64,000 nt of DNA from the NCBI GenBank assembly GCA_037481815.1, contig JBBFKX010000002.1:15300-79299 (forward strand). The letters are read 5' to 3'. Below the pieces are notes generated by a model, which worked only from the letters and a program-made list of their open reading frames with translations, was not told the DNA's origin and did no database searches. The DNA is from a candidate division WOR-3 bacterium (GTDB lineage: Bacteria > Hydrothermota > 32-111). Position numbers and translations under genes: made by a program. Shown here one piece after another: positions 15,287 through 57,833 of this stretch; positions within the stretch are counted from its first letter, which is position 1, and every line of letters starts with the position of its first letter.

Positions 15287-15341
15287 ATCCCCCTCCTGAC
15301 AGCGAAATAACCATCAAATTTTTTATAATAATTAGAAAAAT

Positions 15342-29791: not shown

Positions 29792-29793
29792 TT

Positions 29794-38248: not shown

Positions 38249-38403
38249 AAGATGGTGTATATGAATGGAGAAATTGTTGTTGATGTGAATAAAAAGATCA
38301 ATAAACCTAAAAGTAAAATTATGATAATAAGAGGGAGTAACCAGTATTTTTTCTTTTTCAACAAAAATTTCATCAAAGATTTCAGAGTTTTTAAAAATCC
38401 CAT

Positions 38404-42404: not shown

Positions 42405-43518
42405 ATTTCTGCTCCATAACAGAGAGTCCAGTAAAAAATGGAATAGCAACAAGTTCATCAGATATTTTTTCAGTTACAGGGAAATCTCCATTTTTAAAAC
42501 CAAAAATTTTTTTATAGAAGGGTTGAAGGTGTATTGGATAAAAATACCTTTTTGAAGATATTCCACTTTTATTTAAAAATTCTATTAACTCGTTTCTAAT
42601 CTTTTTATCCACAAATATATAAAATAAAAACCATGAATTCTTTTGCCCTTCAATCAAAGAAGGCAACTTTATCTCCTTTATTCTATTCAACAACTCCATA
42701 TATCTTTTCGCAACATTCTCTCTTCTTTTTAAAATTTCTTCCAGATTTTCCATCTGTGCCAAGCCAATAGCTGAATTTATATCACTAACCCTGAAATTGT
42801 ATCCAAGATATCTATGTATAAAGTTCGGGTCACCTTCCATCCTTCCCTGATTTCTTAACGCTTTAAGATAAAGATAGAGTTTTTTATCATCGGTTACAAT
42901 CATTCCACCTTCACCTGTTGTAATCTGCTTATTCGGATAGAAAGCGAAAACTGCCCCCCTCCCAAAAATACCAGATTTTTTACCTTTAAATTCACTCCCA
43001 AGCGATTCTGACGAATCCTCAAACAATAAAAGATTGTAATCGTTACATAACTCTTCGATCTTTTGATAATCACACAGATTCCCAAGAATGTCTACCGAGA
43101 GGATACCTTTTAAAATTTTTCCATTTTTTTTGTTCACAATTTTTTTGCCCTTTTTTTTATAATCACTTTTTATCTTCCTTTCGATCAGATCAGGAGAAAT
43201 ACACAAACTCTTTTCATCTATATCGACAAAAACCGGACTTGCATTACAGTACAAAATCGAATTTGCAGATGCTATGAATGAAAAAGGGGTTGTAATTATT
43301 TCATCGTTACTTTGAATTCCAGCTGCTTTTAAAAGTAGGAAGAGTCCAGCGGTTCCAGATGATACCATAACGGCATATTTTCTACCAACATAATCTTTAA
43401 ATATGTTCTCAAATTTCTCTGTATATTCCCCCATGCTGAGTTTTTCAGATTTAAGCAGAAAATCCACATACTTTTTTTCATTACCTTTAAAATACAAACC
43501 AGATAATGGAATCTTCAT
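42358..43518 (-). CDS. DegT/DnrJ/EryC1/StrS-family PLP aminotransferase
   Basis: 386 aa; N-terminal LSMGEYTEKFENIFKDYVGRKYAVMVSSGTAGL and PLP-Lys region FYPNKQITTGEGGMI. Confidence 0.85.
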   Translation of the reverse strand: MKIPLSGLYFKGNEKKYVDFLLKSEKLSMGEYTEKFENIFKDYVGRKYAVMVSSGTAGLFLLLKAAGIQSNDEIITTPFSFIASANSILYCNASPVFVDIDEKSLCISPDLIERKIKSDYKKKGKKIVNKKNGKILKGILSVDILGNLCDYQKIEELCNDYNLLLFEDSSESLGSEFKGKKSGIFGRGAVFAFYPNKQITTGEGGMIVTDDKKLYLYLKALRNQGRMEGDPNFIHRYLGYNFRVSDINSAIGLAQMENLEEILKRRENVAKRYMELLNRIKEIKLPSLIEGQKNSWFLFYIFVDKKIRNELIEFLNKSGISSKRYFYPIHLQPFYKKIFGFKNGDFPVTEKISDELVAIPFFTGLSVMEQKYVYKKIKEFFERRSV

Positions 43519-43519
43519 A

Positions 43520-44545
43520 TCATTTCTTTTTCAAAAAGATTTTTCTTCCTTTCCTTGATGCATCATATATAGCCATAATAAGTTCAAGAGATTTCCTTCC
43601 CTCTAAACCATCAGTCAACGGCACACTATCCTTTTCAAGTGAGTTTAAAACATTCTCATAATATGCAAAATGTCCTTCACCGTAAACATTCTTTGGAACA
43701 TAGTTAACCTTTTCAATCATAGCATCGTCATCATCATATTTTTCGAATTCCCATTTTTCAATCCTGTTCAGAGCTGTTCCCCCGATTTTGACTGTCCCTT
43801 TTTCACCGATAACCGTGATCGAACCTTCATAGTTTCTTGGATAGGTTAGCATCGTTACCTGTATAACACCCAAAGCTCCATTTTTATATCTTAAAACTGC
43901 TCCACCTGTATCCTCTGTTTCTATCTTTCGTGCGAGTCGTGCAGTTATTGAAACAACTTCTTTAACTTCTCCACCGAGCCAGACCATAAGATCAACATAA
44001 TGGGATGCCTGATTCAAAAAAGCACCACCATCATACTTCCATGTCCCTCTCCACTTTGCCTGTTCATAATACTCTTGTGGCCTATTCCAGTATACGGTTG
44101 TATTTATAAAATATATTCTTTCAAACCTGTTTTTTTCAATTGCACTTTTTAAAAGTTGAACAGTTGGGTTTAATCTGTTCTGTTTAACAACAAAAAGTTT
44201 GACTTTATTTTTTTTACATTCATTTATAAGTTGATCGGCATCCTTGAGATTTACAGCCATCGGTTTTTCGGTTAGAACATTTATTTTTCTTCTTGCTGCC
44301 ATCATACCATGAATCGGATGTAATCCTGAAGGAGTACAGATAGATAAAAGGTCAAGTTCCTCATTTGAAAGCATATCTTCGAGATTTTTGTAGTATGGTA
44401 CATCAAACCTTTCAGCTGATCTTTTTGCTTTTTCTAAAACTATATCGCACACAGCAACAAGTTTTATTCTTTCATTGAATTTTTCATATACCTCAAAATG
44501 TTTTTCAGATATTCTGCCACATCCAACAAGCCCAACTCTTATCAT
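43520..44545 (-). CDS. Gfo/Idh/MocA-family NAD(P)-dependent sugar oxidoreductase
   Basis: N-terminal IRVGLVGCGRISEKH Rossmann motif; 341 aa. Confidence 0.8.
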   Translation of the reverse strand: MIRVGLVGCGRISEKHFEVYEKFNERIKLVAVCDIVLEKAKRSAERFDVPYYKNLEDMLSNEELDLLSICTPSGLHPIHGMMAARRKINVLTEKPMAVNLKDADQLINECKKNKVKLFVVKQNRLNPTVQLLKSAIEKNRFERIYFINTTVYWNRPQEYYEQAKWRGTWKYDGGAFLNQASHYVDLMVWLGGEVKEVVSITARLARKIETEDTGGAVLRYKNGALGVIQVTMLTYPRNYEGSITVIGEKGTVKIGGTALNRIEKWEFEKYDDDDAMIEKVNYVPKNVYGEGHFAYYENVLNSLEKDSVPLTDGLEGRKSLELIMAIYDASRKGRKIFLKKK

Positions 44546-45486
44546 ATAACACCTCTAAAATATTGTATCGTTTTAGAGAGCCCTAATTCAATGGGAACAC
44601 CATTCTTGTATCTTAAAACTTTCCTTGCAAGTGTTAGATCAGGTTTTCTCTTAACAGGGTCATCAGCAGGCAAATCTTTAAAAACTATCTTTGATTTTGA
44701 TTTTGTTAATTTTATAATCGTTTGTGCTAAATCGATAATCTTGATCTCTTCATCTGAACCAAGGTTTACAGGGCCTGTAAAGTTAGGTTCACTATCGCTT
44801 AATTTTATAATACCCTCTATAAGATCATCTATATAACAAAAAGATCTTGTTTGTGTCCCATCTCCATAAACAGTTATATCACGATTTCCAAGGGCCTGGA
44901 CGATAAAATTTGAAACAACTCTACCATCATCTTTTGACATATATTCTCCATAGGTGTTGAATATTCTACAAACTTTTACTTCAATATTAAAATTTCTATA
45001 ATATTCAAAAGTTAAAGTTTCAGCCACCCTTTTTCCTTCATCATAACAAGCCCTAACACCTATAGGGTTTACATTCCCCCAATAATTTTCATTCTGTGGG
45101 TGCACCAGTGGATCTCCGTATATTTCAGATGTTGAACTTAGAATAAACTTTGAACCAGTTTTTTTTGCAACCTCAAGCATATTCATTGTTCCTATAAAAT
45201 TTGTTTTCAAAGTTTCCAGAGGATATTTTTGATAAAATTTTGGGGAAGCCATTGAAGCAAGATGAAAAATTTTTTTTATGTCCCTGTATTCTATCTGTAT
45301 TTTTTTAGAAACATCTTTTTTAAAAAATTCAAAATTTTTAAACTTTTTTAAAATTTTTAAATTTTCAAGTGAACCAGAGGAAAGGTTATCAATTCCTAAA
45401 ACTCTCTCTCCTCTTTTCAACAGGTATAACGAAAGATTTGTTCCAATAAAACCAGCACAACCAGTTATCAAGTTTATTTTTACCAT
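44542..45486 (-). CDS. NAD-dependent nucleotide-sugar epimerase/dehydratase (UDP-glucuronate decarboxylase-like)
   Basis: ITGCAGFIG motif, Y-x3-K (YDEGKR); 314 aa; adjacent to a UDP-sugar 6-dehydrogenase. Confidence 0.65.
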   Translation of the reverse strand: MVKINLITGCAGFIGTNLSLYLLKRGERVLGIDNLSSGSLENLKILKKFKNFEFFKKDVSKKIQIEYRDIKKIFHLASMASPKFYQKYPLETLKTNFIGTMNMLEVAKKTGSKFILSSTSEIYGDPLVHPQNENYWGNVNPIGVRACYDEGKRVAETLTFEYYRNFNIEVKVCRIFNTYGEYMSKDDGRVVSNFIVQALGNRDITVYGDGTQTRSFCYIDDLIEGIIKLSDSEPNFTGPVNLGSDEEIKIIDLAQTIIKLTKSKSKIVFKDLPADDPVKRKPDLTLARKVLRYKNGVPIELGLSKTIQYFRGVI

Positions 45487-46802
45487 CCGATCCCTTTATA
45501 GTTTTTCGAACTTTTCTTTTCAGGGAAAATGTTCACAAGATCTACGACTATAAGTTCCTTTTTGTTATATGAGTTCAACAATTCTCTGTAAGAGTTGTCT
45601 CTATTGGCAACAACAACGAGTTCTACATTATCCAGAAATTTTTGTGGATCCTCTACAAGAATTTCAGAAATATGTTTTATCTCTCTTTCAATATATTCTT
45701 TATTGGAACCAACCAGTTTTGAAAGTTTTACATTTTCATCATATATTAAAACATTTTTACCTTTACCTAAAAGTTTCTCAACAAGAACAACCGATGGAGA
45801 TTCTCTTAAATCATCTGTCCCACTTTTAAATGTTATACCCATCACTCCAATTCTATTTACCTTTTCTTTTAAGATTAAATCAAAAGCCCAATCGATATGA
45901 AGATCGTTGGAATCCATTATATTTTCGATTATAGGTAAAGATAATCCATTCCTTTTGGATTCATAAGACAAAGCTCTTACATCCTTCGGTAAACATGAAC
46001 CACCGAATGCGAATCCTGGTTTTAAATAATATTCAGATATATTTAGTTTTCTATCCATAAGGAAAAGTTCCATCACTTCTCTGCTATCGATCCCTTTCTT
46101 TTTACATATTCTTGCGATTTCATTAGCGAAACCAACTTTTAACCCATGAAAGGTGTTGTTAACATATTTAAGCATTTCAGCAGTTTTTATAGATGTTACG
46201 ATAAATGGCGCTTCAAGAAATGAATACATCTGTCTTATTATCCTTTCACTCGCCTCACATTCACAACCTATAAGAGTATAAGGAGGGTTATAGAAATCGT
46301 TTACAGCATTACCTTCCCTTAAGAATTCAGGATTTGACAGAACATCAAAATCTTTTTTCCTTTTCTTTCCACTTATACTCTGGACTATCTCGGCATACTT
46401 ATCAACGGTTCCGGGCATCGATGTTGACCTTATGAGTATAAGGTACTCTCTTTCAAAATTTTCCTTTTTCCTCAAAGCATCACCTATCTGTTGGGCAGTT
46501 TTAAAAATGTATGAAAGATCAACCTCTCCAGTTTCTGAAGACGGAGTTCCTACACAGATCAATGCGATATTGGTATTCTTAACCGCATACTCAAAATCAT
46601 CTGTTGCCTCAAGATTCCCGGCTTTTACAACTTTTGATACTATCTCATTGATATAGGGTTCAACTATAGGGGATCTTCCATTGTTGACTTCAGAGATTTT
46701 TATATCGTTTATCTCAACCCCTATAACTTTGTATCCCTGCTCTGCCAAACATGCAGCGGATATTATACCAACATAACCCAAACCAAAAACAGCGATCTTC
46801 AT
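45480..46802 (-). CDS. nucleotide-sugar 6-dehydrogenase (UDP-glucose dehydrogenase-like)
   Basis: N-terminal KIAVFGLGYVG, catalytic Cys region GFAFGGSCLPKD; 440 aa. Confidence 0.8.
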   Translation of the reverse strand: MKIAVFGLGYVGIISAACLAEQGYKVIGVEINDIKISEVNNGRSPIVEPYINEIVSKVVKAGNLEATDDFEYAVKNTNIALICVGTPSSETGEVDLSYIFKTAQQIGDALRKKENFEREYLILIRSTSMPGTVDKYAEIVQSISGKKRKKDFDVLSNPEFLREGNAVNDFYNPPYTLIGCECEASERIIRQMYSFLEAPFIVTSIKTAEMLKYVNNTFHGLKVGFANEIARICKKKGIDSREVMELFLMDRKLNISEYYLKPGFAFGGSCLPKDVRALSYESKRNGLSLPIIENIMDSNDLHIDWAFDLILKEKVNRIGVMGITFKSGTDDLRESPSVVLVEKLLGKGKNVLIYDENVKLSKLVGSNKEYIEREIKHISEILVEDPQKFLDNVELVVVANRDNSYRELLNSYNKKELIVVDLVNIFPEKKSSKNYKGIGW

Positions 46803-48967
46803 TTTTCACCTTCTTTTGTATGATAATGATAATAATAATGATAATAGTAATATTTCCCATAGAAACTTTCGGTGTTAACATTGTTAAAAACAAAACCAAC
46901 TAATGGTATATTAAGATTTTTCAACAATTTTTTTGTATAGTGTAACTCTCTTTTTTTCGCTTTTTTAAATTGAACAACCCAGAGTAAACCATCCGATAAC
47001 CTTGAAATTATTGTAGGGTCTGCAACCGAAAGTATCGGAGAAGTATCAACTATGATAAAATCAAACATCCCTTTTAACTGTTCAAAAATTTTTCTTGTCA
47101 ATTTCCCTTCAAGTAGTTCAGTTGAATGAGATGTCCTTTCACCATAAGGTATTATCCATAGATTCTCAATTCCACTTGGATATATAACCTTTTCAACACT
47201 TGTTTCCCCTTTCAGTATGTTTGTAAAACCTTTATCAAAACTTAAATTAAACATTTTATCGATCACAGGTCTTCTCAAATCTCCATCTATCAAAAGAACC
47301 TTTTTGTCCAGTTGTGCTAAAACGATGCTAAGGTTTGATGCGGTAGTTGATTTCCCTTCACCTTTTGTGGCTGATGATACAACGATTATTTGGGGAGTTT
47401 TTGTTCCTTCGGAAAGATATAAAAGGTTTGTTCGAAGAATTTTATACGATTCAACAATCGGTGAATTTTCTGGAACTTCAGTTAAAAGTTTACTCCTTTC
47501 ACTAACCATCGTTTTCCCATTTTTGAGTTTAATCAAAGGGATATTACCAATTATATTAACTTTTAATTCTCTTTCAATTTCATCTATATCCTTTACAGAA
47601 TCGTCTATATATTCTTTAATAAACACTGCACCTATTCCCAGTATTATGGCAAGAAAGAATCCAAAAAGATAATTTCTGTTTTTCTTTGGTAAAACTGGAT
47701 TTTTATTCAACACAGGTTTATCTATTATCTTTACAGAACCAAGTTTACCAGCTTCTGCCACTTTTGCCTCTTCAAATTTTCCTTTCAACATCAGATAAAG
47801 TTCCTCTGAAACTTTTTTATTTCTTTCAAGTCGTGCAAGCATAAGTTCCTGATATGGGATCTTTTTCATCTTATCTTCAAAAATTTTTATCACATTGTTT
47901 AACGCTTCAATCATCGACTCCTTAACTTTTATTTCAAGTTGAACCGATACGATTTCGTCCATAAGACTTTTTGAATAATCCAAAGGATTGGTTGCGAAAT
48001 ATTTTTCAGTCAAAGATTTTTTACTGTTGGTCACTATGTTGTTTTTCAAATTTTCAACCCTTATCTTTATCTCCTTCATTTTCGGATGTGATGTGTCGTA
48101 TCCAAGTGATAGAAAATATGCATAGGATGACTGTAAAGAATCGAGTTCCTTCATAGATCTTTCAAGGAAGGGATTAAGTTCATTCAAAAATCCTTCAGCC
48201 ATCATTTTGTTCGACTGGGAAAGGTTCTCTTTTAGATAATTCAATTTTGCAAGAAGCATCTCCCTTTCAACATAGTTCTGTTTTTTCTGACCTTCAAAAT
48301 TTGATATCATATCAACAAGTTTTGAGGTCTCTTCGGTGAGTTCGATAATAGAATTATTCTCTTTAAACTTTTTTAAATTTTCTTCATTTATTTGTAGATC
48401 ATTTTCTATTTTAGTTAACTGTTCTTCGAGAAATTTTCTCACCTCACTCAATTCTCCCCTAGTCATTTCAAGGTTAATATTGTAATACTGCTCAACTATG
48501 ATTTTTGTTATATAGAAAGCATCCTCTGGACTCTTATCATTATAGATTATTTTCAAAATATCAGTATCCTTAACCGGGATCACTGTGAGATTTTTTTTGA
48601 GATATGATATCCTTGCTTCTTTTTCTTTAAATTTACCTATATAAAGAGAGTCAAGATAACCACTGTTTGATATAACATTTTCGACTCTTTCAAAAAGAGT
48701 TCTGGATTGAACCATTTCTATGTGGTTATTTATAACAGTTTGTCTTGGATTTAGATCCCTTATAGGTAAAAATGAAAGTCCTTTATCACTTGTTTCAATT
48801 AGTATCAGTGAAGTAGATTGATAGGTTGGTTTTGTAATTTTCGTTATCAAAAAAACAAGAACGATCACAATAAAAAATGTTGTTAAAAACAAAATTTTAT
48901 TCTCGAGTAAAAGAAAAAAATATGTCTTTAACTCTTTTCCTTCCTCTTCTATAACCCTCTCCGGCAT
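46799..48967 (-). CDS. polysaccharide co-polymerase / tyrosine autokinase (Wzc-like BY-kinase)
   Basis: Wzz-like N-terminal TM plus coiled coil, second TM, Walker A SSATKGEGKST, C-terminal Tyr-rich tail YGKYYYYHYYYHYH. Confidence 0.75.
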   Translation of the reverse strand: MPERVIEEEGKELKTYFFLLLENKILFLTTFFIVIVLVFLITKITKPTYQSTSLILIETSDKGLSFLPIRDLNPRQTVINNHIEMVQSRTLFERVENVISNSGYLDSLYIGKFKEKEARISYLKKNLTVIPVKDTDILKIIYNDKSPEDAFYITKIIVEQYYNINLEMTRGELSEVRKFLEEQLTKIENDLQINEENLKKFKENNSIIELTEETSKLVDMISNFEGQKKQNYVEREMLLAKLNYLKENLSQSNKMMAEGFLNELNPFLERSMKELDSLQSSYAYFLSLGYDTSHPKMKEIKIRVENLKNNIVTNSKKSLTEKYFATNPLDYSKSLMDEIVSVQLEIKVKESMIEALNNVIKIFEDKMKKIPYQELMLARLERNKKVSEELYLMLKGKFEEAKVAEAGKLGSVKIIDKPVLNKNPVLPKKNRNYLFGFFLAIILGIGAVFIKEYIDDSVKDIDEIERELKVNIIGNIPLIKLKNGKTMVSERSKLLTEVPENSPIVESYKILRTNLLYLSEGTKTPQIIVVSSATKGEGKSTTASNLSIVLAQLDKKVLLIDGDLRRPVIDKMFNLSFDKGFTNILKGETSVEKVIYPSGIENLWIIPYGERTSHSTELLEGKLTRKIFEQLKGMFDFIIVDTSPILSVADPTIISRLSDGLLWVVQFKKAKKRELHYTKKLLKNLNIPLVGFVFNNVNTESFYGKYYYYHYYYHYHTKEGEK

Positions 48968-48976
48968 AAAAACTCC

Positions 48977-50284
48977 TTAAAGTTTAATGATATTCTTGCT
49001 CTTAACCTTTTTAAAACCATTTCTCGTATCAAATATGATCTTTGCATTTTTTGCAACCATTTCATAATCAAAAGAAGAGTGGTCTGTCAGAAGAATAACA
49101 CAATCAAATTTTCTTATTTCATTCTCTTTAATACTCTTTAAAACTTTTACCTTCTTATGTTCACCCTTTTCGTCTATAAAACTGTTAACCATTGGATCAT
49201 AAACCGTTACCAAAGCTCCCATCTCTTTCAACAGATGGTATACCTCAAGAGCAGGCGATTCTCTTAGGTCATCAATATCTTTTTTATAAGTTATCCCCAT
49301 CAACAAAATTTTTGAACCATTTAGTGTTTTTTTATATTTATTTAAAATCTCTGTAACCTTATTCAAAACAAATCTCGGCATGTTTGAATTTACATCTGAA
49401 GCAAGTTCAATAAATCTGTTGTAGTAATCATACATCTTTGCTTTCCAGGAAAGATACATAGGATCGAGAGGTATACAATGACCACCGATTCCAGGTCCTG
49501 GATAAAATGGCATAAAACCAAAAGGTTTTGAAGATGCTGCCTCTATTACATTCCAGATATCTATTCCCATCCTATGACACATGATTGCAAGTTCGTTTAC
49601 AAGTCCTATATTCACTGCTCTGAACGTATTTTCCAGTAATTTCACCATTTCAGCTTCCTCAGGGGAATTAACCGTTATCACCTTCTCTATAACCTGTTCA
49701 TACAACATTTTTGTGATCAGTGTATCTTTATCAGTTATTCCTCCAACAACTTTTGGAGTATTTTTTGTATTGTATCTGGGATTACCTGGATCAACCCTTT
49801 CTGGAGAAAATGCAACAAAAAAATCTTTTCCCACTTTATAACCAAAATTTGAAACTCTTTCAGCAATAAGTTCTCTTGTAGTTCCTGGGTAGGTAGTAGA
49901 TTCCAGAACTATAAGCATATCTTTATGAAGATATTTAACTATCTCATCCATTGCACCGGTGATATATGATACATCTGGATCTTTACTTTTTTGAAGTGGA
50001 GTCGGAACGGCTATCAAAACACAATCAGATTTTTTTACAACAGAATAATCGGTAGTGGGTAAAAATCTTTTGTTAACAACATCTTTAACATCTTTATTAT
50101 CAACATCAAGAATATACGACTCGCCCTTTTTTAAAAGTTCAACTTTCTCTCTCAATAGATCTATTCCATAAACAAAAAAACCTGCTTTTGCGAATTCAAC
50201 AGCAAGCGGTAAACCAACATAACCAAGACCAACTACCGAGATTACAGATTTTTTATCTTTAACCTTTTGAAGTAGAACACTCAT
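48977..50284 (-). CDS. UDP-N-acetylhexosamine 6-dehydrogenase (WecC/TviB/WbpA-like)
   Basis: N-terminal ISVVGLGYVGLPLA, catalytic Cys region GPGIGGHCIPLDP; 435 aa. Confidence 0.8.
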   Translation of the reverse strand: MSVLLQKVKDKKSVISVVGLGYVGLPLAVEFAKAGFFVYGIDLLREKVELLKKGESYILDVDNKDVKDVVNKRFLPTTDYSVVKKSDCVLIAVPTPLQKSKDPDVSYITGAMDEIVKYLHKDMLIVLESTTYPGTTRELIAERVSNFGYKVGKDFFVAFSPERVDPGNPRYNTKNTPKVVGGITDKDTLITKMLYEQVIEKVITVNSPEEAEMVKLLENTFRAVNIGLVNELAIMCHRMGIDIWNVIEAASSKPFGFMPFYPGPGIGGHCIPLDPMYLSWKAKMYDYYNRFIELASDVNSNMPRFVLNKVTEILNKYKKTLNGSKILLMGITYKKDIDDLRESPALEVYHLLKEMGALVTVYDPMVNSFIDEKGEHKKVKVLKSIKENEIRKFDCVILLTDHSSFDYEMVAKNAKIIFDTRNGFKKVKSKNIIKL

Positions 50285-50300
50285 GAAAATCCTCCTTTAT

Positions 50301-50915
50301 TTATATTACAAGTAAAGATATTATATAATCCAAATACTCATCTATGTCAATAGAATTAACTCTTTCCATCTGGTAAGGCTCAAAATCTACTGGAATCTTT
50401 CTATTCTTTAAAAAATCTTTTACATTAAATATATAAAATGCACCGTTCTGCCTATATATATTTTTGTAAGGAATTAGAATTAAACCATCTTCCGATGAAA
50501 AGAACATGTGTTCTTTGTTTTCAATTTTTTCTACAGAGATTACAGTTTTTTTCTTTTCTGAAAACAAAAATAGAGCTTCTTTTAAATCATTTTTGCTTCT
50601 CAAAGGTGATGTCGGTTGAAGTAAAATTATAACATCATCATTTTTCATTTTATATTTTTTGATCATATATAAAATCAATAGATCCATAGTAGTAGTCGCT
50701 TTTGCGAGTCGTTTAGGCCTTAAATCAAAAACGACTTTTGAATGCATTAAAGAGCCCATCCTTTTGTCTGAAGAAACTATAATTTTATCAAAAATTTCAG
50801 ATTCAATGGCAAAATCTAAGGTTATTTCAAAAAGAGTTTTTCCTGAAATCCTCACAAAATTTTTATTTTTAACCCTTCTGCTTTCACTTTTAGCAGGTAT
50901 TAAAGCGTAAATCAT
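50301..50915 (-). CDS. acylneuraminate (nonulosonate) cytidylyltransferase-family protein
   Basis: N-terminal ALIPAKSESRRVKNKN resembles the IPAR-x-S-x-R/KN motif of CMP-sugar synthetases; 204 aa. Confidence 0.65.
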   Translation of the reverse strand: MIYALIPAKSESRRVKNKNFVRISGKTLFEITLDFAIESEIFDKIIVSSDKRMGSLMHSKVVFDLRPKRLAKATTTMDLLILYMIKKYKMKNDDVIILLQPTSPLRSKNDLKEALFLFSEKKKTVISVEKIENKEHMFFSSEDGLILIPYKNIYRQNGAFYIFNVKDFLKNRKIPVDFEPYQMERVNSIDIDEYLDYIISLLVI

Positions 50916-50917
50916 TT

Positions 50918-53900
50918 TTATCCAAAGAATATATCTCCAAAAGTTTCCTTTTCAATTTTTTCATCTCTTTTTTCTAACTCTTGATTTTTTTCTTCAAACC
51001 ATCTTTCTAAAGACACTCTTTCCATCTTTTCTTTTTCCATATCCTCTTTTTCTTTCTTAGAGATATCCGGTATTCTATGTTCTTCAGTCTTTCTTTCCCC
51101 AGAAATTTCATGTTGCATCTTTTCCTGTAAGGTCTCACTCATCCTATCCTTTTCCTCATTCAATTTTTTAATCTCTTCTTCAAGATTTTTGATCACATTA
51201 TCTTTTTGTTCATAATCAACTTTCTTTGAAGAAACTTCATGTTTTAACCTGTTATTTTCCTTAATGAGATTTTCGATCTTCATTTTTAAATCTTTTATGG
51301 TTTCATCCTTTTTATTGATTTCGACAGATAGATCCTTTTGGTATAGAGATTCATTATCTTTTGCAAGTTCTATTTTTTCATGTAAGATCTTCAACTGCTG
51401 CTTTTTTTCTTCAATCTCATTCAAAGTCTTTTCTTTTTCCAAATCATATTTTTCTTTTTCAACTTTTGAGATTTCAACTTCTTTCTTAATCTGTTCATAC
51501 ATACCTTTCATCTTTTCGATTTCATTTTTTATCTGCTCATACTGTTTTTGCATCTGTTTTTCTATTCCAGCAATTTTGATCATCTTTTGTGTTGTTTCGG
51601 TAAACTCTTTTTTAAGATTCTCAGTTTTTACTTGAAGATCAATATATTCCTGCTGAAGAGATTGCCTGCTTTCCGTTATTTTAGCGATTTCTGACTTTTT
51701 ACCATTTATTTCCTCATTTATTGTAAAGAGCTCTTTTCTCATATTCAAAAGAAGTTTTTCTTTTTCAGCCAGTTCCATCTCAATGTTCTTTTTGATATTT
51801 TCAATTTTTTCAAGACCTAAAACGGCAGCCAGTTTTCTTTCCTGATTTTTTCTTAAAATTATTATTTCGTCCAACTTATTCTTTATCTTTAATAGTTGAT
51901 TTAAACTCATCTTGGTTTCTATTATTTGCGGAGAATCTCCTTCAACCGGTTTGAATTCTCTTATATTTGGAAAATCTGTTTCAATCTTTTGAATCTTTTC
52001 TTCAAGTTCACCAAGATCGATTCTCTTTTCATTTATAGTTGTGTTCAGTCTTATTTCTTCTTTCTTCAAAGATTCTATTTCATTTTCAAGAGATTCCTTT
52101 TGTAACTGAAGATCTTCGATATCCATCATCGACATTTTAAGCGTGTTCTGTATCTCTTCAAGTTTTTCATTTTCCTGTTTTATCCTATTTCCTATCTCTT
52201 TTGATTCTTTTTCCTTTTCAAGCAACCATCTGGTTATCTCATCCTTATCATTTTTTAAAGAAACGAGTTCGTTGTTAAGTTCTATGATCTCTTCATCGAT
52301 CCGATTCTTCTCTTTTTCAAGATCTTCTATAACACCTGATGTCTCTTTGATTCTTTTTTGAAAATTATTTTCAAATTCATTGAGTTCTCTCTTCTTTTCT
52401 TCTATAATCTTTTCCAGATTCTCCTTTTCTTTTAAAACCTGCTCAGTTTCTTTTTTTGAAAGTTGAAGTCTGTTTTCATTTTCATCGAGCAATTCTTTCA
52501 ATTCTTTTTCTTTTATCTGGCATTCTTTTTCCTTTTGACTTAACTCTTGTTCGAACTCCAGCAGTACCTTTTTCAACTCTTCTATTTTCAAATTTTTTGC
52601 TTCGATTTCTCTATCCAGTTCATTTTTTTGATTATTTATTTTTTCGAGTTCGAGTAAAAGTTGTTTTCTCTCCTGTTCCTTTCCGTTGAAATTTTCAAGT
52701 ATCATTTCAGCATTAACTTTTAGCTGCTCAAGTTCCTGCTTATCCTCTTCTATCTGTGAAGTTAGTTTTTCTTTCTCTTTCCTCAATTTTAACACTTCAT
52801 CAAAAATATTTTCCTTTTCTCTTTTTAACTCCTCTATTTCTCCAGCAAGTCCTTTTTTCTGTTTTTCAAACTCGTTCATCTCGTTCCTTATTTCAGTATA
52901 TCTATCTGAAAAACCTGAATACTCCCTCATCAATTCATCCAGTTTTTTCTCTTCCTTTTTGATGGAATTCACAAGTTGGAGTAGTTCTCCATTTTTTGCC
53001 TTTATTTCCTTTTCAAGGGTATCTTTTCGTTTTTCATCATTTTTTATTATTCCTGAAAGTTCATTGAAGTATGATTCTTTAGTTTTTATTTCTTTTTCCT
53101 TTTCATTAAGTTTTTCAGTCAAAATGTTATATTCCAAATCTAATTTTTTGAGCGTTTGGCTTTTTTCATCGATTTCATCTTCTATTTTTTTAATATTGTT
53201 TTTCAATCGCTCTTCAGTTTTTTCAAGATCATCTATAACCTTTCTTGTTTTTTGATTTTCTTCTTTTAAATCATCTCTTTCTTTTTCGTATTGTTTTATG
53301 GTCCTTTTCAAATCGTTTATCTTTTCTGTCAATTCGAGTTCATCACCAAGAGAAACTCCCATGCCGGATTCGATTTTTTCGAGATATTTTTTCTTATCAT
53401 TTATCTTTTGTTCTAAAAGATTTAAACTGTTTTCATCCTCTTCAAATTTTTTCTTTAAACTTGAATATCTTTTTTCAAGATTTTTTAATTGCTCGGTTTT
53501 CTCCTTTTCCTCTTCTTTCAAAGATTCAAGATTTTTGCTGACCTTTTCAAAAGCAGTTTTGTTCTCTTCTAGTTCTCGTCTTAAAATTTCATTTTTCCTT
53601 TCTTCCTCTTCATTTTCCTTTCGTAGTTCAGAGAGTTTCTTCTCTTCCAGATCATATTTCGCTTTCAACTCTTCAAAGTCCTGTAATGTACCATTTTTTT
53701 CTTTTCTTATATTTTCAAGTTCTTTTAATATTTTTTCCTTTTCTCTCTTTCTTTCCTCAATATCTATTTCAAGATTAGTTATCTCCATTTCAATTGATTC
53801 TTTCTTTTTATTCAAATCATCAACTGTTTTCTCTTTTTCCTTCGTTAACCTTTCGATCTCTTTTTTTAATTCATCTAATCTTTTTTCCCTTTCATTTATT

Positions 53901-54850
53901 TCTTTTGTTAAATTTTTTAAAAGTGTTGTTTGTTCATCGATTTTTTTTCTAAGTTCTTTTTCTTCTATTGACTTCTTCATAAGGTTGGAAACTATCCTGT
54001 TTAACTCCTCATTCTTCTGAATGATTTCCCTTTCCAATTTTTCAAAATCAACTCTTCCTTCAATATCTTTTGATTTTATATGCTCAACGGTTTCAACTGT
54101 TTCGTTTATTTCCTCTCTATTTTCCTCTTTTATCTGTTCTTTCAATTCTTGTTCGACATAGTTTTTTTCTTCTAAAAACTCTTCTTTTATATTCTCTTTC
54201 TCTATTTCTTCTTCTTTTTTCTCGCTTTCAACTTCAAGATCAGTGATATCTATTTCCTGCAGTTTTTCAACAAGGTCCTTGGCAACATTCTCTTCATTTT
54301 TTTTATCAAGATCTATCTCGTTGATATATTCTGTTCTATACCCTGTTTCCTCTGATGATAATTCCTCTTTTAGATTGTCTATAGGAATGGTTTCTTTTTT
54401 CTGTTCGTCAGAAATTATTTCTTCTTTCTTTTCAGGTTCTTCAATTTTTTCAAATGTTTCATCCTTCTGTAAGAAACTCTCTTTTTCATCTGTTTCTATT
54501 TTTTCTTCCACTGTTTCAATTTTTTCAAACACATCAAGAAGATCTCCTATACTTTCCTCATGGGGGGGCTCCATAATGGTTTCATCTTTGGTTGAATCAA
54601 CCTTTTGTTCTGTAACAACAGTTTCTGAATCAAAAGTATCAAGAATATCTGAAAGATCAGAAACTATATCTTCTGTTATATTCTTATCATCTTCAAGGGA
54701 TTCTTCTTTCGTTTCTTCATTCTTACTAATTTCTTTTGATGCTACTTTTATACCTTTTTTCTTTTTTAAAACTACTTTTTTTTGTTCTTCACTCTTTTTT
54801 ATTTCATTTTCATCTCTTTCTGATTCATCCTTTTTTCTAAAAAACATCAT
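50918..54850 (-). CDS. giant coiled-coil protein (1310 aa, Lys/Glu-rich, no recognisable catalytic domain)
   Basis: Continuous heptad-like K/E/L/I periodicity over about 1000 aa, acidic low-complexity N-terminal ~250 aa; start 9 nt after the xerD-like stop; antisense frames are low-complexity S/F artefacts. Confidence 0.7.
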   Translation of the reverse strand: MMFFRKKDESERDENEIKKSEEQKKVVLKKKKGIKVASKEISKNEETKEESLEDDKNITEDIVSDLSDILDTFDSETVVTEQKVDSTKDETIMEPPHEESIGDLLDVFEKIETVEEKIETDEKESFLQKDETFEKIEEPEKKEEIISDEQKKETIPIDNLKEELSSEETGYRTEYINEIDLDKKNEENVAKDLVEKLQEIDITDLEVESEKKEEEIEKENIKEEFLEEKNYVEQELKEQIKEENREEINETVETVEHIKSKDIEGRVDFEKLEREIIQKNEELNRIVSNLMKKSIEEKELRKKIDEQTTLLKNLTKEINEREKRLDELKKEIERLTKEKEKTVDDLNKKKESIEMEITNLEIDIEERKREKEKILKELENIRKEKNGTLQDFEELKAKYDLEEKKLSELRKENEEEERKNEILRRELEENKTAFEKVSKNLESLKEEEKEKTEQLKNLEKRYSSLKKKFEEDENSLNLLEQKINDKKKYLEKIESGMGVSLGDELELTEKINDLKRTIKQYEKERDDLKEENQKTRKVIDDLEKTEERLKNNIKKIEDEIDEKSQTLKKLDLEYNILTEKLNEKEKEIKTKESYFNELSGIIKNDEKRKDTLEKEIKAKNGELLQLVNSIKKEEKKLDELMREYSGFSDRYTEIRNEMNEFEKQKKGLAGEIEELKREKENIFDEVLKLRKEKEKLTSQIEEDKQELEQLKVNAEMILENFNGKEQERKQLLLELEKINNQKNELDREIEAKNLKIEELKKVLLEFEQELSQKEKECQIKEKELKELLDENENRLQLSKKETEQVLKEKENLEKIIEEKKRELNEFENNFQKRIKETSGVIEDLEKEKNRIDEEIIELNNELVSLKNDKDEITRWLLEKEKESKEIGNRIKQENEKLEEIQNTLKMSMMDIEDLQLQKESLENEIESLKKEEIRLNTTINEKRIDLGELEEKIQKIETDFPNIREFKPVEGDSPQIIETKMSLNQLLKIKNKLDEIIILRKNQERKLAAVLGLEKIENIKKNIEMELAEKEKLLLNMRKELFTINEEINGKKSEIAKITESRQSLQQEYIDLQVKTENLKKEFTETTQKMIKIAGIEKQMQKQYEQIKNEIEKMKGMYEQIKKEVEISKVEKEKYDLEKEKTLNEIEEKKQQLKILHEKIELAKDNESLYQKDLSVEINKKDETIKDLKMKIENLIKENNRLKHEVSSKKVDYEQKDNVIKNLEEEIKKLNEEKDRMSETLQEKMQHEISGERKTEEHRIPDISKKEKEDMEKEKMERVSLERWFEEKNQELEKRDEKIEKETFGDIFFG

Positions 54851-54858
54851 CCCCCCTT

Positions 54859-55752
54859 TTAACTTCTTGGATGGAATCTATCGTAAATCTTCGTAAGTTG
54901 TTTTTTATTAACATGAGTATATATCTCAGTCGTCATAATGCTTGAGTGTCCCAACATTTCCTGCACACTTCTCAGATCCGCTCCTCCCTCTATCAGATGT
55001 GTTGCAAAAGAATGTCTGAGAATATGAGGGTGCAATCTCTTTTGAATACCCAAATGTTTTACTCTTTTTTTCAAAATGTTCCATACATCCATTCTTGTTA
55101 GTTTTTTCCCTGTTCTGCTCAAAAACAAATATTCACTTTTATATTTTTCAAAAAAACTTCTATAATTCCTCAAATATTCTTGAATACTGTTTAAAGCTAT
55201 TCGATTCAAAGGAACAATTCTTTCCTTCATTCTCTTCCCTAAAACCTTTATAAAACCTTCTTCATAAAATACTGATTCGATTTTTAAATTTATAACCTCG
55301 GAAACTCTTAATCCCGCACCATACATGGTCTCCAAAATCGCTTTATCCCTTTTATCAAAAGGATCATCGCTATTTATGGAATTCAATATCAAGGTTGTTT
55401 CTTCAAGTGTTAGATAATCAGGCAAATTTTTTGAAATTTTTGGTGGAGATATATTTTCTGTCGGGTCTTTATCTATGATCTTTTCCCTATAGATAAAACT
55501 ATAAAAATTTTTCAAAGAGGTCAATTTTCTAGAAAGTGTTCTTCCATTTAAACCTAACATCGAGAGTTCCTTTAAAAAAAATTCAATAATGTTTTCATCA
55601 GCTTCAAAAACATCTTTTTTAAAATTTTCACAAAACTGTATATACTGGGCTATATCATTAAGATAAGCGTCGACAGTCAGATCAGAGCATCCCTTTTCAG
55701 ATATAAGAAAATTTTTAAAATCCGATAAAACATTGTTTTTATAAGACATCAA
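54859..55752 (-). CDS. tyrosine site-specific recombinase, XerC/XerD-like
   Basis: 297 aa; C-terminal catalytic box HILRHSFATHLIEGGADLRSVQEMLGHSSIMTTEIYTHV with the catalytic Tyr. Confidence 0.85.
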   Translation of the reverse strand: MMSYKNNVLSDFKNFLISEKGCSDLTVDAYLNDIAQYIQFCENFKKDVFEADENIIEFFLKELSMLGLNGRTLSRKLTSLKNFYSFIYREKIIDKDPTENISPPKISKNLPDYLTLEETTLILNSINSDDPFDKRDKAILETMYGAGLRVSEVINLKIESVFYEEGFIKVLGKRMKERIVPLNRIALNSIQEYLRNYRSFFEKYKSEYLFLSRTGKKLTRMDVWNILKKRVKHLGIQKRLHPHILRHSFATHLIEGGADLRSVQEMLGHSSIMTTEIYTHVNKKQLTKIYDRFHPRS

Positions 55753-57112
55753 AAGAATCTCCCTTAAATGGTATTATTACATTCTCATACCCATTTTCTT
55801 TTAAAGCATCTTTTAAAGAGTTTATCTGTTTTTCTTCTCCATGAACCAGGTATATTTCTTTTTTAGGGTTTATATTTTTAACATAGTTGATAAGGTCGTT
55901 TCTATCAGCATGTGCTGAATATTCATTCATGATAACAACTTCAGCTTTCAATCTATACTCTTCACCAAAAATTTTTACTTTTTCTTCTTTTTCAACTATT
56001 TTCCTACCAAGTGTATTCGATGCCATAAAACCTGTGATCAAAATTGTATTTGAAGGATTTTCAATATTATTTTTAAGATGATGCAAAATTCTGCCTGCCT
56101 CACACATACCACTTGCTGAAATGATTATCTTTGATTCTCTCATGCTATTTAACTTCTTTGATTCCTCAACACCCTGAATGTAATATAGTCCATCAAAATT
56201 AAAGGGATCTTTGTTAAAGTTAAAAAGATTCATCATATCACTATCATAACATTCGGGATGTTCCTTGAACACTTTGGTTATATTAACAGTCAAAGGCGAA
56301 TCAACAAAAATGTTCATCCCTAAGTCATAACCTTCTTCTTTTAACATAAAAAGATCATACAAAAGTTCCTGGGTTCTTCCAACAGAAAATGCTGGGACGA
56401 TCAGATTTCCCTTCTTTCTTTTTACACTTTCAATAACTTTCTTTAAATTTTCTCTACTCTCTCTTATATCAGGATGTGTTCTGTCTCCATAGGTTGATTC
56501 CATAATCAAAAAATCTACATCTTTTATTATATCAGGATTTCTTATGATCGGAAGATGTTTCCTCCCCAGATCACCTGTAAAAAGCATCTTCTGCCCATCC
56601 TTTTCAAAAAGAATTTGAGATGAACCCAAAATGTGTCCTGCATCTAAAAATGTGACTTTAAGATCTTTATCGATTTCCAGTTCAGAGTAATAATTGATCC
56701 CTTTAAAATATTTAAAAGAAAGTTCGACATCTTTTACTGTATAGATAGGTTGTTTATTTTCGGGATTTTTGTTTTTTTTGTTTAAAAATTCTATATCTTT
56801 CTCATGAATATGCGCACTATCAAGAAGCATCGGTTTTAAAAGATCAACCGTTGCATAGGTAGACACGATTTCCGAATCATATCCTTGTTTCACAAGATTG
56901 GGTATGTTTCCAGAATGATCTATGTGAGCGTGGGATAATAAAACCATATTCAAAGATTTTGGATCAAAAGGAAAATTTAAATTTGCAATTTCACTTTCCT
57001 TTCTCCTTCCCTGAAAAAGGCCACATTCAACAAGAATTCTCTTTCGATCAGTTTCGAGAAGGAACTTGGAACCTGTAACCTCTTTTGTTGCACCAAAGAA
57101 TGTAATCTTCAT
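55739..57112 (-). CDS. beta-CASP family metallo-beta-lactamase-fold ribonuclease-like protein
   Basis: 457 aa; MBL HxHxDH motif (SHAHIDHSG) followed by a beta-CASP region; 3' end overlaps the xerD-like start by 14 nt. Confidence 0.7.
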   Translation of the reverse strand: MKITFFGATKEVTGSKFLLETDRKRILVECGLFQGRRKESEIANLNFPFDPKSLNMVLLSHAHIDHSGNIPNLVKQGYDSEIVSTYATVDLLKPMLLDSAHIHEKDIEFLNKKNKNPENKQPIYTVKDVELSFKYFKGINYYSELEIDKDLKVTFLDAGHILGSSQILFEKDGQKMLFTGDLGRKHLPIIRNPDIIKDVDFLIMESTYGDRTHPDIRESRENLKKVIESVKRKKGNLIVPAFSVGRTQELLYDLFMLKEEGYDLGMNIFVDSPLTVNITKVFKEHPECYDSDMMNLFNFNKDPFNFDGLYYIQGVEESKKLNSMRESKIIISASGMCEAGRILHHLKNNIENPSNTILITGFMASNTLGRKIVEKEEKVKIFGEEYRLKAEVVIMNEYSAHADRNDLINYVKNINPKKEIYLVHGEEKQINSLKDALKENGYENVIIPFKGDSFDVL

Positions 57113-57113
57113 T

Positions 57114-57749
57114 TTAAATCCTGATATTAAAATCTTTCAGTACATCACTAAATTTTTTCGCTTCACCAAAAAATCCATGACCTGGAAAAATTTTTGTTTC
57201 CTTATTTATATTTGAAAATATTTTTTTTATCGATCCGATTATACTTTTATAATCACCTCCAAAAAGATCTGTCCTTCCTATTCCCTCTGTAAAAATTAGA
57301 TCACCAGAAATTATATTGTTTCCGATCTTTAAAGTTATTGATCCCGGGGTATGTCCCGGAGTCGAAAGGACATTTATTATTTCTTGATCAAAACAAAACG
57401 AATAACCTTCATCTAAGATGACTTCGGGTTGTGGAGAGATGTAATTATTTCCAATATAGTAGGACATATTCAATTCAGGGTCCAGTAAAAAATCGTAATC
57501 TTTAACTCCAACACATATTGGTATGTCGAAATAATTCTTCAAATAAAGATTGCCTGAAATATGATCATAATGACCATGAGTGTTCACTATTTTTTCAGGA
57601 ATCAAGCCATTACCTTTTATGTAATCAACCACCATCTTTCCATCAGCAGGATCAATAATAATGGTTTTTTTATCCTTTGATATAAGAAAATAGGTGTTTG
57701 TTTCAAGTTCACCATTTACAAGACAATCTATTTTTAAATTTGATTCCAT
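57114..57749 (-). CDS. metallo-beta-lactamase-fold hydrolase (glyoxalase II-like)
   Basis: 211 aa; THGHYDHISG metal-binding motif; 1-nt gap to the downstream beta-CASP gene. Confidence 0.75.
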   Translation of the reverse strand: MESNLKIDCLVNGELETNTYFLISKDKKTIIIDPADGKMVVDYIKGNGLIPEKIVNTHGHYDHISGNLYLKNYFDIPICVGVKDYDFLLDPELNMSYYIGNNYISPQPEVILDEGYSFCFDQEIINVLSTPGHTPGSITLKIGNNIISGDLIFTEGIGRTDLFGGDYKSIIGSIKKIFSNINKETKIFPGHGFFGEAKKFSDVLKDFNIRI

Positions 57750-57833
57750 AATTTATAAGTTTAACAAAAATTCCCAATAAATCAATATAATATTATATAT
57801 TTACTTTTCAAAATTTATTGATAATATTACACT

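What the first reader, a model, noticed from the sequence alone, without database searches (positions are those of the whole stretch)
50301..57749. Tightly coupled gene string: MBL hydrolase, beta-CASP nuclease-like protein, XerD-like recombinase, giant coiled-coil protein, running into glycan genes
Five genes on the minus strand have 1-nt to 14-nt gaps or overlaps (57114/57112, 55752/55739, 54859/54850, 50918/50915), so they are likely co-transcribed. A recombinase sandwiched between two metallo-beta-lactamase-fold enzymes and a structural coiled-coil protein is not a described module. It could be a chromosome dimer resolution/segregation unit with an associated nuclease, or an unrecognised recombinase-based system. 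The same transcription direction continues for about 19 kb through capsule-type genes down to 38404.
Basis: inference. Interest (0 to 1): 0.55.

Follow-up and report, generated by a model that had tools for sequence, protein, structure and literature searches.

The report
Conserved housekeeping gene string in WOR-3
The gene string is real and is kept together in one branch of the uncultured phylum WOR-3, but it looks like an ordinary mixed operon (a small hydrolase, an RNA-degrading nuclease, the standard chromosome-resolving recombinase XerD and a lineage-specific giant coiled-coil protein) rather than a new recombinase system.

Summary
Five minus-strand ORFs sit at the stated coordinates, with junctions of +1, -14, +8 and +2 nt, and they run into glycan genes.

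The spacing is not special. In this window, 85% of same-strand neighbours are 15 nt apart or less, and about 98% of the sequence is coding.

The genes are:
- a YcbL/GloC-like small MBL hydrolase;
- a TTHA0252-type beta-CASP ribonuclease;
- a canonical XerD, above NCBIfam's equivalog cutoff with its catalytic residues intact;
- a 1310-aa heptad-repeat protein found only in this clade;
- a cytidylyltransferase that belongs with the glycan genes.

The window comes from a candidate division WOR-3 MAG. The order MBL, beta-CASP, XerD, coiled-coil protein, nucleotide-sugar dehydrogenase recurs in every locus of four WOR-3 sublineages, where the nuclease is 55-100% identical. It is reduced to beta-CASP plus XerD in a fifth sublineage. 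It is absent from other WOR-3 relatives and from 79 beta-CASP loci of other phyla.

I found no dif-like site, no flanking inverted repeats, no CRISPR array and no defence-system match.

Best reading: an inherited, probably co-transcribed operon of functionally independent housekeeping genes. The only real unknown is the coiled-coil protein, which always follows xerD. Interest is low to moderate.

The parts
57750..57833 (-). Divergent intergenic region between the MFS transporter gene (+) and the MBL gene (-). It is the likely promoter region of the string and has a promoter-like site, TTGAAA-16-TATATT, at 57811-57784.
   Evidence: It is one of only two junctions longer than 16 nt between 38778 and 62481 (the other is an ORF-calling overlap). 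It contains a consensus promoter match (promoter-like matches region-wide were only modestly above shuffles). It is 81% conserved across four close relatives. In the more distant lineages the genes upstream of the MBL gene differ, which fits a unit that starts here.
57114..57749 (-). Small MBL-fold hydrolase (211 aa), similar to the YcbL/GloC-type glyoxalase-II-like enzymes.
   Evidence: Pfam Lactamase_B, 1.6e-23. The GloB equivalog scores 90 bits, below its 200.8 cutoff. The best solved relatives are 7l0b 'hydroxyacylglutathione hydrolase' (3.7e-30), 2zwr and 2xf4.
55739..57112 (-). beta-CASP metallo-nuclease (457 aa) of the TTHA0252 ribonuclease type.
   Evidence: Lactamase_B + Beta-Casp (2e-37) + RMMBL RNA-specificity domain (2.9e-17). 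Full-length match to Thermus TTHA0252, 2dkf, E 2e-73. The HxHxDH motif and other His/Asp positions are invariant in 20 orthologues. Identical to P0001, which NCBI names as a candidate division WOR-3 MAG protein.
54859..55752 (-). XerD tyrosine recombinase (297 aa). Its start overlaps the end of the nuclease gene by 14 nt.
   Evidence: TIGR02225 XerD scores 341.7 bits, above its 329.6 cutoff. The XerC model scores 304.9, below its 335.15 cutoff. R149, K173, H243, R246, H269 and Y278 are invariant in 7 orthologues.
50918..54850 (-). Giant lineage-restricted coiled-coil protein (1310 aa; the real start is probably the second ATG at 54847). It has an N-terminal MFF(R/K)K plus a KKKKGIK basic patch and an acidic, probably disordered region of about 250 aa. 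About 950 aa of heptad repeats follow, broken at conserved islands. It ends in an acidic tail with DI[FLM][FY]G at the C-terminus.
   Evidence: No Pfam family. There are only sub-threshold coiled-coil hits to SMC/Rad50 models. Heptad periodicity was tested. The AlphaFold model (mean pLDDT 55) has helix breaks that coincide with the conserved islands SGMG, YSGFSDRY, NFNGKE and DFPNIREFKP..SPQ. An exhaustive phmmer search of 1.84 billion representatives gave one real hit. Orthologues lie in the same position in all block-carrying loci.
50301..50915 (-). Nonulosonic-acid-type cytidylyltransferase (204 aa). It belongs with the glycan genes rather than with the four genes upstream.
   Evidence: Pfam CTP_transf_3, 1.8e-16. 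PseF-like at 73.9 bits, below cutoff. It is missing from the L008/L089 version of the block.
48977..50284 (-). Nucleotide-sugar dehydrogenase (435 aa). It is the last member of the conserved core of the string.
   Evidence: TIGR03026 at 436 bits, above its cutoff. It is 68-96% identical and sits in the same position in every block-carrying locus.
38404..48967 (-). Further co-directional glycan genes. They encode a Wzc-like chain-length/tyrosine kinase protein, a second sugar dehydrogenase, an epimerase, a GFO/MocA oxidoreductase, a DegT aminotransferase, a PglF/CapD-like dehydratase, a carbamoyltransferase and a small ORF.
   Evidence: Pfam and NCBIfam assignments. The Wzc-like gene and at least one further downstream glycan gene follow the block in the window clade and in the 58-63% clade, as far as the fetched flanks reach.

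Best explanation
This is an inherited, probably co-transcribed operon of functionally independent housekeeping genes in the compact genome of a candidate division WOR-3 bacterium.

Transcription most likely starts in the 84-nt divergent intergenic region at 57750-57833 (inferred). It would then read through the genes in this order:
1. A small YcbL/GloC-like metallo-hydrolase, probably a thioester or other small-molecule hydrolase.
2. A TTHA0252-type beta-CASP ribonuclease working in general mRNA decay.
3. XerD, the ordinary chromosome-dimer resolvase, acting at a dif site elsewhere in the genome.
4. A cytoplasmic giant coiled-coil protein restricted to this clade.
5. The nucleotide-sugar and capsule-type genes.

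The giant protein is most likely a structural scaffold or filament. Its basic N-terminus and its acidic-hydrophobic C-terminal peptide look like docking ends.

The genes stay together because the arrangement was present in an ancestor of this WOR-3 branch and the unit has not been broken up. The recombinase and the nucleases do not need to work on a common substrate.

Shown: gene identities, spacing, and the distribution of the synteny. Inferred: co-transcription, independence of functions, and the scaffold role.
For: - Family assignments.
- XerD passes its equivalog cutoff and keeps all catalytic residues.
- The nuclease carries the RMMBL RNA-specificity domain and matches TTHA0252 over its full length. 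TTHA0252 is a non-essential RNase whose disruption changes global mRNA levels (PMC4229858).
- Short gaps are the rule in the window: 85% are 15 nt or less.
- The order MBL, beta-CASP, XerD, coiled-coil, sugar dehydrogenase occurs in the window and in L001-L005, L008, L089, L091-L096, with unrelated upstream flanks.
- In a beta-CASP NJ tree the carriers are neighbouring branches inside the WOR-3 cluster, which fits vertical descent.
- The string is absent next to beta-CASP orthologues in 79 of 80 loci of other lineages and in L006, L007 and L090.
- A metabolically unrelated sugar dehydrogenase is conserved in the string as strictly as XerD.
- Precedent: E. coli xerD is listed in one sigma-E-regulated unit with dsbC, recJ and prfB (PMC2731931).
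- No dif-like site, inverted repeat, CRISPR array, RNA family or defence model was found.
Against: - The core order has survived while both flanks were rearranged, in lineages where even this slowly evolving nuclease is only 55-63% identical. That is more persistence than neutral drift of gene order usually allows, and it hints at selection on the unit.
- The coiled-coil gene has never been seen anywhere except directly after xerD (14 of 14 loci).
- Co-transcription has not been measured.
- Whether the genome has a XerC partner, FtsK and a dif site could not be checked.
Confidence: 0.65

Rival explanations
1. XerD and the giant coiled-coil protein form a functional pair. The coiled-coil protein would be a WOR-3-specific scaffold that positions XerD, or the chromosome terminus, at the division site. 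This would be loosely analogous to the MatP-ZapB-ZapA linkage or to FtsK-directed Xer activation. Its acidic-hydrophobic C-terminal peptide would dock onto a partner.
For: - The coiled-coil gene directly follows xerD (8-15 nt gap) in all 14 loci that carry it, across four sublineages. No member of the family was found in any other context.
- The end motifs (MFxKK plus a basic patch; an acidic stretch plus DI[FLM][FY]G) are conserved although the rod diverges to about 30% identity.
- The C-terminal peptide has the same general character as the FtsZ C-terminal peptide of a WOR-3 relative, DLDIPTFLRKQID.
Against: - The sugar dehydrogenase that follows is conserved in position equally well, so adjacency alone is weak evidence.
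- L009 keeps beta-CASP and XerD without any coiled-coil gene.
- The protein has no DNA-binding or ATPase domain.
- The resemblance to the FtsZ tail is weak and was not tested.
Confidence: 0.15
2. The coiled-coil protein belongs functionally with the downstream glycan and envelope genes, for example as a cytoplasmic scaffold for polysaccharide assembly. XerD and the two MBL-fold enzymes would be unrelated upstream passengers.
For: - The gene is always followed by a nucleotide-sugar dehydrogenase, and in most lineages by cytidylyltransferase and Wzc-like genes.
- The hydrophobic and polybasic N-terminus could bind the membrane (inference).
Against: - In L008/L089 the Wzc-like and cytidylyltransferase genes are gone, but the coiled-coil gene stays next to xerD.
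- No known polysaccharide system has such a component (own knowledge).
Confidence: 0.1
3. A new recombinase-based system. XerD would work with the beta-CASP nuclease and/or the MBL hydrolase on DNA, or act as an invertase switching the downstream glycan locus, or the block would be a mobile or defence island.
For: - beta-CASP and xerD overlap by 7-44 nt in five WOR-3 sublineages, including L009, which lacks the other block genes.
- Some beta-CASP enzymes are DNA nucleases (Artemis/SNM1; PMC8450076, listed).
- The nuclease's best NCBIfam hit is the type VII CRISPR protein Cas14.
Against: - The nuclease carries the RNA-specificity domain and is the TTHA0252 type.
- The Cas14 score is 420 against a cutoff of 800, and the C-terminal third of Cas14 is missing. 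No CRISPR array or cas genes are present.
- No PADLOC match apart from coiled-coil noise.
- Inverted repeats are at chance level: 4 pairs observed against 2-6 in shuffles.
- XerD passes the housekeeping equivalog cutoff.
- Base composition matches the surroundings, and no tRNA or other RNA family was detected.
- The association is absent outside one WOR-3 branch.
Confidence: 0.05

Closest known systems
XerD (TIGR02225), chromosome-dimer-resolving tyrosine recombinase
   Same: It scores above the equivalog cutoff. It has the SAM-like N-terminal domain plus the catalytic domain, and the full R-K-H-R-H-Y set is conserved.
   Different: The partner recombinase, the dif site and FtsK control were not observed. 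The gene sits in an unusual neighbourhood that is conserved only within WOR-3.
Ribonuclease TTHA0252 of Thermus thermophilus (beta-CASP family, PDB 2dkf/3iek)
   Same: Same three-domain architecture and length class. Full-length alignment with E 2e-73. TTHA0252 is a non-essential RNase that influences global mRNA levels (PMC4229858).
   Different: Activity has not been tested here. In WOR-3 the gene is translationally close-coupled to xerD, which was not seen in 79 loci of other lineages.
E. coli xerD-dsbC-recJ-prfB unit (and dapF-xerC, from own knowledge)
   Same: A Xer recombinase gene is co-expressed with functionally unrelated housekeeping genes, one of them a nuclease (PMC2731931).
   Different: The partner genes are different. 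The nuclease there is the ssDNA exonuclease RecJ, not a beta-CASP RNase, and there is no coiled-coil protein.
Bacterial coiled-coil-rich scaffold proteins (own knowledge: Ccrp, FilP/Scy, ZapB and similar) and SMC/Rad50 rods
   Same: A long heptad-repeat rod with conserved interruptions. There are weak profile hits to SMC/Rad50 coiled-coil regions.
   Different: No ATPase head, no hinge domain and no detectable sequence homology to any named family. It has family-specific end motifs and is restricted to a WOR-3 branch.
Cas14 of type VII CRISPR-Cas
   Same: The MBL/beta-CASP catalytic core is similar (NCBIfam 420 bits; PDB 8yhd E 2e-66).
   Different: It scores below the family cutoff of 800. 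It lacks the C-terminal roughly 185 residues, and there are no Cas5/Cas7 genes or CRISPR array.

Membership tests
XerD (NCBIfam TIGR02225 equivalog) | Whole-protein score above the curated equivalog cutoff | tested here: met
   341.7 bits against a cutoff of 329.6. The XerC model scores 304.9, below its 335.15 cutoff.
XerD (NCBIfam TIGR02225 equivalog) | N-terminal SAM-like core-binding domain plus C-terminal tyrosine-recombinase catalytic domain, with the R-K-H-R-H-Y residues | tested here: met
   Phage_int_SAM_1 (residues 10-91) plus Phage_integrase (113-284). R149, K173, H243, R246, H269 and Y278 are invariant in 7 orthologues.
XerD (NCBIfam TIGR02225 equivalog) | Acts at a chromosomal dif site with a XerC partner under FtsK control | not testable with these tools
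   The window holds no dif-like site above chance: 3 matches against 2.8 expected. The rest of the genome could not be read.
TTHA0252-type beta-CASP ribonuclease | MBL + beta-CASP + RMMBL architecture, with a full-length match to the solved enzyme and conserved metal-binding motifs | tested here: met
   Pfam domains. 2dkf at E 2e-73 over residues 1-444 of the query and 1-420 of the chain. H61, H63, D65, H66, H160, D181, H401 and H424 are invariant.
TTHA0252-type beta-CASP ribonuclease | RNA, not DNA, as the substrate | not testable with these tools
   This is inferred only from the RMMBL domain and from homology.
Type VII CRISPR Cas14 | Score above the NCBIfam cutoff, including the C-terminal Cas7-binding part | tested here: not met
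   420.6 bits against a cutoff of 800. The match covers profile positions 1-425 of 612.
Type VII CRISPR Cas14 | Neighbouring cas5/cas7 genes and a CRISPR array | tested here: not met
   The neighbours are XerD, the MBL hydrolase and glycan genes. There are no arrays in the 64 kb.
Glyoxalase II (GloB, TIGR03413) | Score above the equivalog cutoff | tested here: not met
   90.3 bits against a cutoff of 200.8. The similarity is to the short YcbL/GloC-like forms 7l0b, 2xf4 and 2zwr.
SMC / Rad50 / MukB-like rods | ATPase head domains (Walker A/B, signature motif) flanking the coiled coil, with the family cutoff reached | tested here: not met
   The best hit, SMC_prok_B, scores 84.5 bits against a cutoff of 567 and covers coiled-coil regions only. 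No Pfam SMC_N or AAA domain was found.
Site-specific invertase / phase-variation switch | Inverted repeats bracketing a promoter-bearing segment next to the recombinase gene | tested here: not met
   Only AT-rich pairs with 72-94% complementarity were found. The count equals that of shuffled sequence: 4 against 2-6.
Integrative mobile element / defence island | Atypical composition, tRNA or att borders, variable presence among close relatives, defence-gene models | tested here: not met
   GC content matches the flanks. No Rfam or tRNA hit. The block is present in all close relatives. There are no PADLOC hits other than coiled-coil noise.

The most novel reading that the evidence does not exclude
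The giant coiled-coil protein is a WOR-3-specific chromosome-terminus or divisome scaffold that works with XerD. It would use its conserved acidic-hydrophobic C-terminal peptide and basic N-terminus as docking ends, so the xerD/coiled-coil pair would be a previously unknown way of coupling dimer resolution to cell division.
Probability: 0.1. Interest if true: 0.55.

Novelty: new member of a known kind. Interest (0 to 1): 0.22.

Why it matters
On the housekeeping reading, the finding adds little beyond annotation. It places a canonical XerD, a TTHA0252-type RNase and a GloC-like hydrolase in a poorly studied candidate phylum. It also shows that gene order there can be conserved without shared function.

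The one item worth a specialist's attention is the clade-restricted giant coiled-coil protein, which is always encoded directly after xerD. WOR-3 cell biology is nearly unknown, and a cultured representative now exists (PMC12285271). A conserved 850-1425-aa rod with defined end motifs is therefore a concrete candidate for a cytoskeletal or segregation element that could be localised and deleted.

Tried and rejected
- Exact-sequence look-ups of the window's XerD and beta-CASP proteins found nothing, although P0001 is identical to the window's beta-CASP protein. This is an index limitation.
- A word-indexed homologue search with the full coiled-coil alignment returned only E/K-rich noise. The same search with the 58-aa conserved island returned no candidates. 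Two of three searches were therefore wasted on this protein.
- The first metagenome scan with the full coiled-coil alignment chose uninformative patterns (EKIENIK, IEKQMQ) and confirmed nothing. A repeat with the conserved island gave 4 loci.
It sampled distant phyla rather than the nearest WOR-3 genomes, so the nearest relatives came from exact-protein look-ups instead.
- A dif consensus search was at chance level.
- Direct and inverted repeat searches gave only low-complexity matches, and a shuffle test showed no excess.
- Rfam gave no hits, and tandem-repeat finding showed no CRISPR array.
- PADLOC gave nothing but coiled-coil noise.
- The AlphaFold model of residues 111-1310 has mean pLDDT 55. 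I used it only for helix boundaries and did not run a fold search.
- The idea that the C-terminal DIFFG mimics the FtsZ tail was considered. It is kept only as speculation.
- Whether a second Xer recombinase exists could not be tested.


Full report
**Observation**

The junctions are a 1-nt gap, a 14-nt overlap, an 8-nt gap and a 2-nt gap. SD-like sequences (AAGGGAG, AAGGGGGG, AGGAGG) lie at three of the junctions examined: those before xerD, the coiled-coil gene and the sugar dehydrogenase gene. The same strand continues through glycan genes down to 38404.

The spacing is not distinctive. Among 40 same-strand neighbour pairs in the 64-kb window the median gap is -4 nt, 85% are 15 nt or less, and about 98% of the window is coding.

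**Source**

The beta-CASP protein is identical to P0001, which NCBI names as a protein of a candidate division WOR-3 MAG on a 431,646-bp contig. GC content is about 30% throughout, with no compositional break at the block.

**Gene identities**

- The 211-aa protein is a Lactamase_B-fold enzyme. It scores below the GloB cutoff (90 against 200.8 bits). Its closest solved relatives are short glyoxalase-II-like proteins (7l0b, 2xf4, 2zwr).
- The 457-aa protein has Lactamase_B, Beta-Casp and the RMMBL RNA-specificity domain. It aligns end to end with Thermus ribonuclease TTHA0252 (2dkf, E 2e-73). TTHA0252 is a non-essential RNase whose disruption alters the levels of about 200 mRNAs (PMC4229858).
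- The best NCBIfam hit of the nuclease is Cas14 of type VII CRISPR. That hit scores 420 bits against a cutoff of 800 and covers only the first 425 of 612 profile positions. There are no cas genes or arrays in the window.
- The 297-aa protein passes the XerD equivalog cutoff (341.7 against 329.6) and fails the XerC one. It keeps R149, K173, H243, R246, H269 and Y278.
- The 204-aa protein is a CTP_transf_3 cytidylyltransferase. It belongs with the downstream sugar genes. These encode two nucleotide-sugar dehydrogenases, a Wzc-like protein, an epimerase, a GFO/MocA oxidoreductase, a DegT aminotransferase, a PglF-like dehydratase and a carbamoyltransferase. A NeuB gene lies on the other strand.

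**The giant protein**

It has no Pfam family and only far-sub-threshold hits to the coiled-coil parts of SMC/Rad50 models.

Hydrophobic 3.5-residue periodicity is strongly significant from about residue 281 to 1230, with a gap at 953-1008. A single-sequence AlphaFold model is of low confidence (mean pLDDT 55), so I used it only for secondary structure. It shows long helices interrupted exactly at the conserved islands SGMG (about 496), YSGFSDRY (644), NFNGKE (720) and DFPNIREFKPVEGDSPQ (959). The first roughly 280 residues are acidic and predicted disordered.

Across orthologues that fall to about 30% identity, two ends stay recognisable:
- an N-terminal MF(F/G/N)KK followed by a lysine patch;
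- a C-terminal acidic stretch ending in DI[FLM][FY]G.

An exhaustive phmmer search of residues 480-1135 against 1.84 billion representatives gave one true hit, a fragment. A metagenome scan with the conserved island gave four loci. The family is rare and clade-restricted.

**Synteny**

Exact-protein look-ups and scans gave the following picture.

| Group | Loci | Arrangement |
|---|---|---|
| Window clade (82-93% beta-CASP identity) | L001-L003, L092, L093 | Full string from MFS/TamB through the Wzc-like gene |
| 58-63% clades | L004, L005, L091, L094, L095, L096 | MBL, beta-CASP, XerD, giant protein, cytidylyltransferase, dehydrogenase, Wzc-like gene (as far as each contig reaches); completely different upstream genes |
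| 55-58% clade | L008, L089 | MBL, beta-CASP, XerD, an 844-855-aa version of the coiled-coil protein, the dehydrogenase; different genes on both sides |
| One further WOR-3 lineage | L009 | Only beta-CASP and XerD adjacent |
| Other relatives | L006 (WOR-3); L007, L090 (unnamed metagenome contigs) | None of the block |

Of 80 beta-CASP loci sampled from GTDB species, 79 have no XerD or small MBL within 10 kb. These 79 include Zixibacteria, Ignavibacteria, Chloroflexota, Planctomycetota, Verrucomicrobiota and others, at 41-52% identity. L009 is the exception.

In a beta-CASP NJ tree the carriers form neighbouring branches inside the WOR-3 cluster. This fits a single ancestral arrangement that was inherited vertically and partly lost.

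**Sites**

- A dif-core search gives 3 matches against 2.8 expected, none near the block.
- Inverted repeats around the block are AT-rich and no more frequent than in shuffled sequence.
- No terminator-like site lies on the coding strand inside the block.
- The one real intergenic region (57750-57833) carries a promoter-like match and is 81% conserved in close relatives.
- There are no Rfam hits and no PADLOC hits beyond coiled-coil noise.

**Interpretation**

The functional reading is not supported, for four reasons:
- The recombinase is a canonical XerD.
- The nuclease is of the RNA-degrading type, and its neighbours vary freely outside this branch.
- The small MBL enzyme is a small-molecule hydrolase type.
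- A sugar dehydrogenase with no conceivable role in recombination is conserved in the string as strictly as XerD.

Mixed-function Xer operons have a precedent. E. coli xerD is listed in one sigma-E-regulated unit with dsbC, recJ and prfB (PMC2731931). From my own knowledge, xerC also lies in the dapF operon.

I therefore favour an inherited operon of independent housekeeping genes (confidence 0.65). The main rival (0.15) is a functional link between XerD and the coiled-coil protein, because that gene has never been seen elsewhere. A link of the coiled-coil protein to the glycan genes (0.10) and a true recombinase/nuclease system (0.05) are less likely.

**Limits**

- Co-transcription is inferred, not measured.
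- The rest of the genome could not be searched for XerC, FtsK or dif.
- The word-indexed protein search failed on the low-complexity protein.

Noticed in passing
window 29204-30291 (-): An adjacent pair of a small Ras-like GTPase (195 aa; Arf/Ras/Gtr1 hits) and a Roadblock/LC7 protein (165 aa). This is the MglA/MglB-type polarity module layout. It lies next to a methyl-accepting chemotaxis protein gene at 27532-29202 (+).
   Followed up: no
window 635-3217 (-), 3918-6194 (-), 34913-36619 (-), 22522-23841 (+): Four sizeable ORFs (860, 758, 568 and 439 aa) have no Pfam family at E <= 1e-5.
   Followed up: no
window 57750-57833 and L001/L003/L093 equivalents: The 84-nt divergent intergenic region between the MFS gene and the MBL gene is unusually well conserved, with long invariant runs such as AAAAGTAAATAT and AAACTTATAAATT just before the ATG. 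No RNA family matched it.
   Followed up: partly
window 50918-50950 (giant protein C-terminus) and L006:21232-21354 (-): The giant protein's C-terminus (acidic run plus DI[FLM][FY]G) is of the same general type as the FtsZ C-terminal peptide of a WOR-3 relative (EDLDIPTFLRKQID) and the SSB tail. The resemblance is weak and untested.
   Followed up: partly
window 10794-17218 (-) and 36691-50915: There are two separate glycan regions in one 64-kb window. The first has GT1/GT2 transferases, RmlD and a Wzt/Wzm-type ABC exporter at 10.8-17.2 kb. The second is a Wzc-type locus with NeuB and a cytidylyltransferase (a nonulosonic-acid route) at 36.7-50.9 kb.
   Followed up: no
window 10397-10810 (-) versus L008:11601-11996 and L089:17222-17617: A YjbQ/UPF0047 gene lies three genes downstream of the coiled-coil gene in the L008/L089 lineage. 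In the window it sits 40 kb away, which marks a rearrangement breakpoint just after the sugar dehydrogenase.
   Followed up: no
window 55739-57112 (tool behaviour): The exact-sequence look-up reported the window's beta-CASP protein as not on record. However, the search for homologous proteins returned an identical 457-aa sequence, P0001. The giant protein family also seems absent from the word index.
   Followed up: partly
window 59053-63953 (-): TamB (1142 aa) and an Omp85/TamA-like protein (490 aa in the window, cut by the window end region) lie directly upstream. SpoIID and SerRS follow in the relatives. This indicates a diderm envelope.
   Followed up: no
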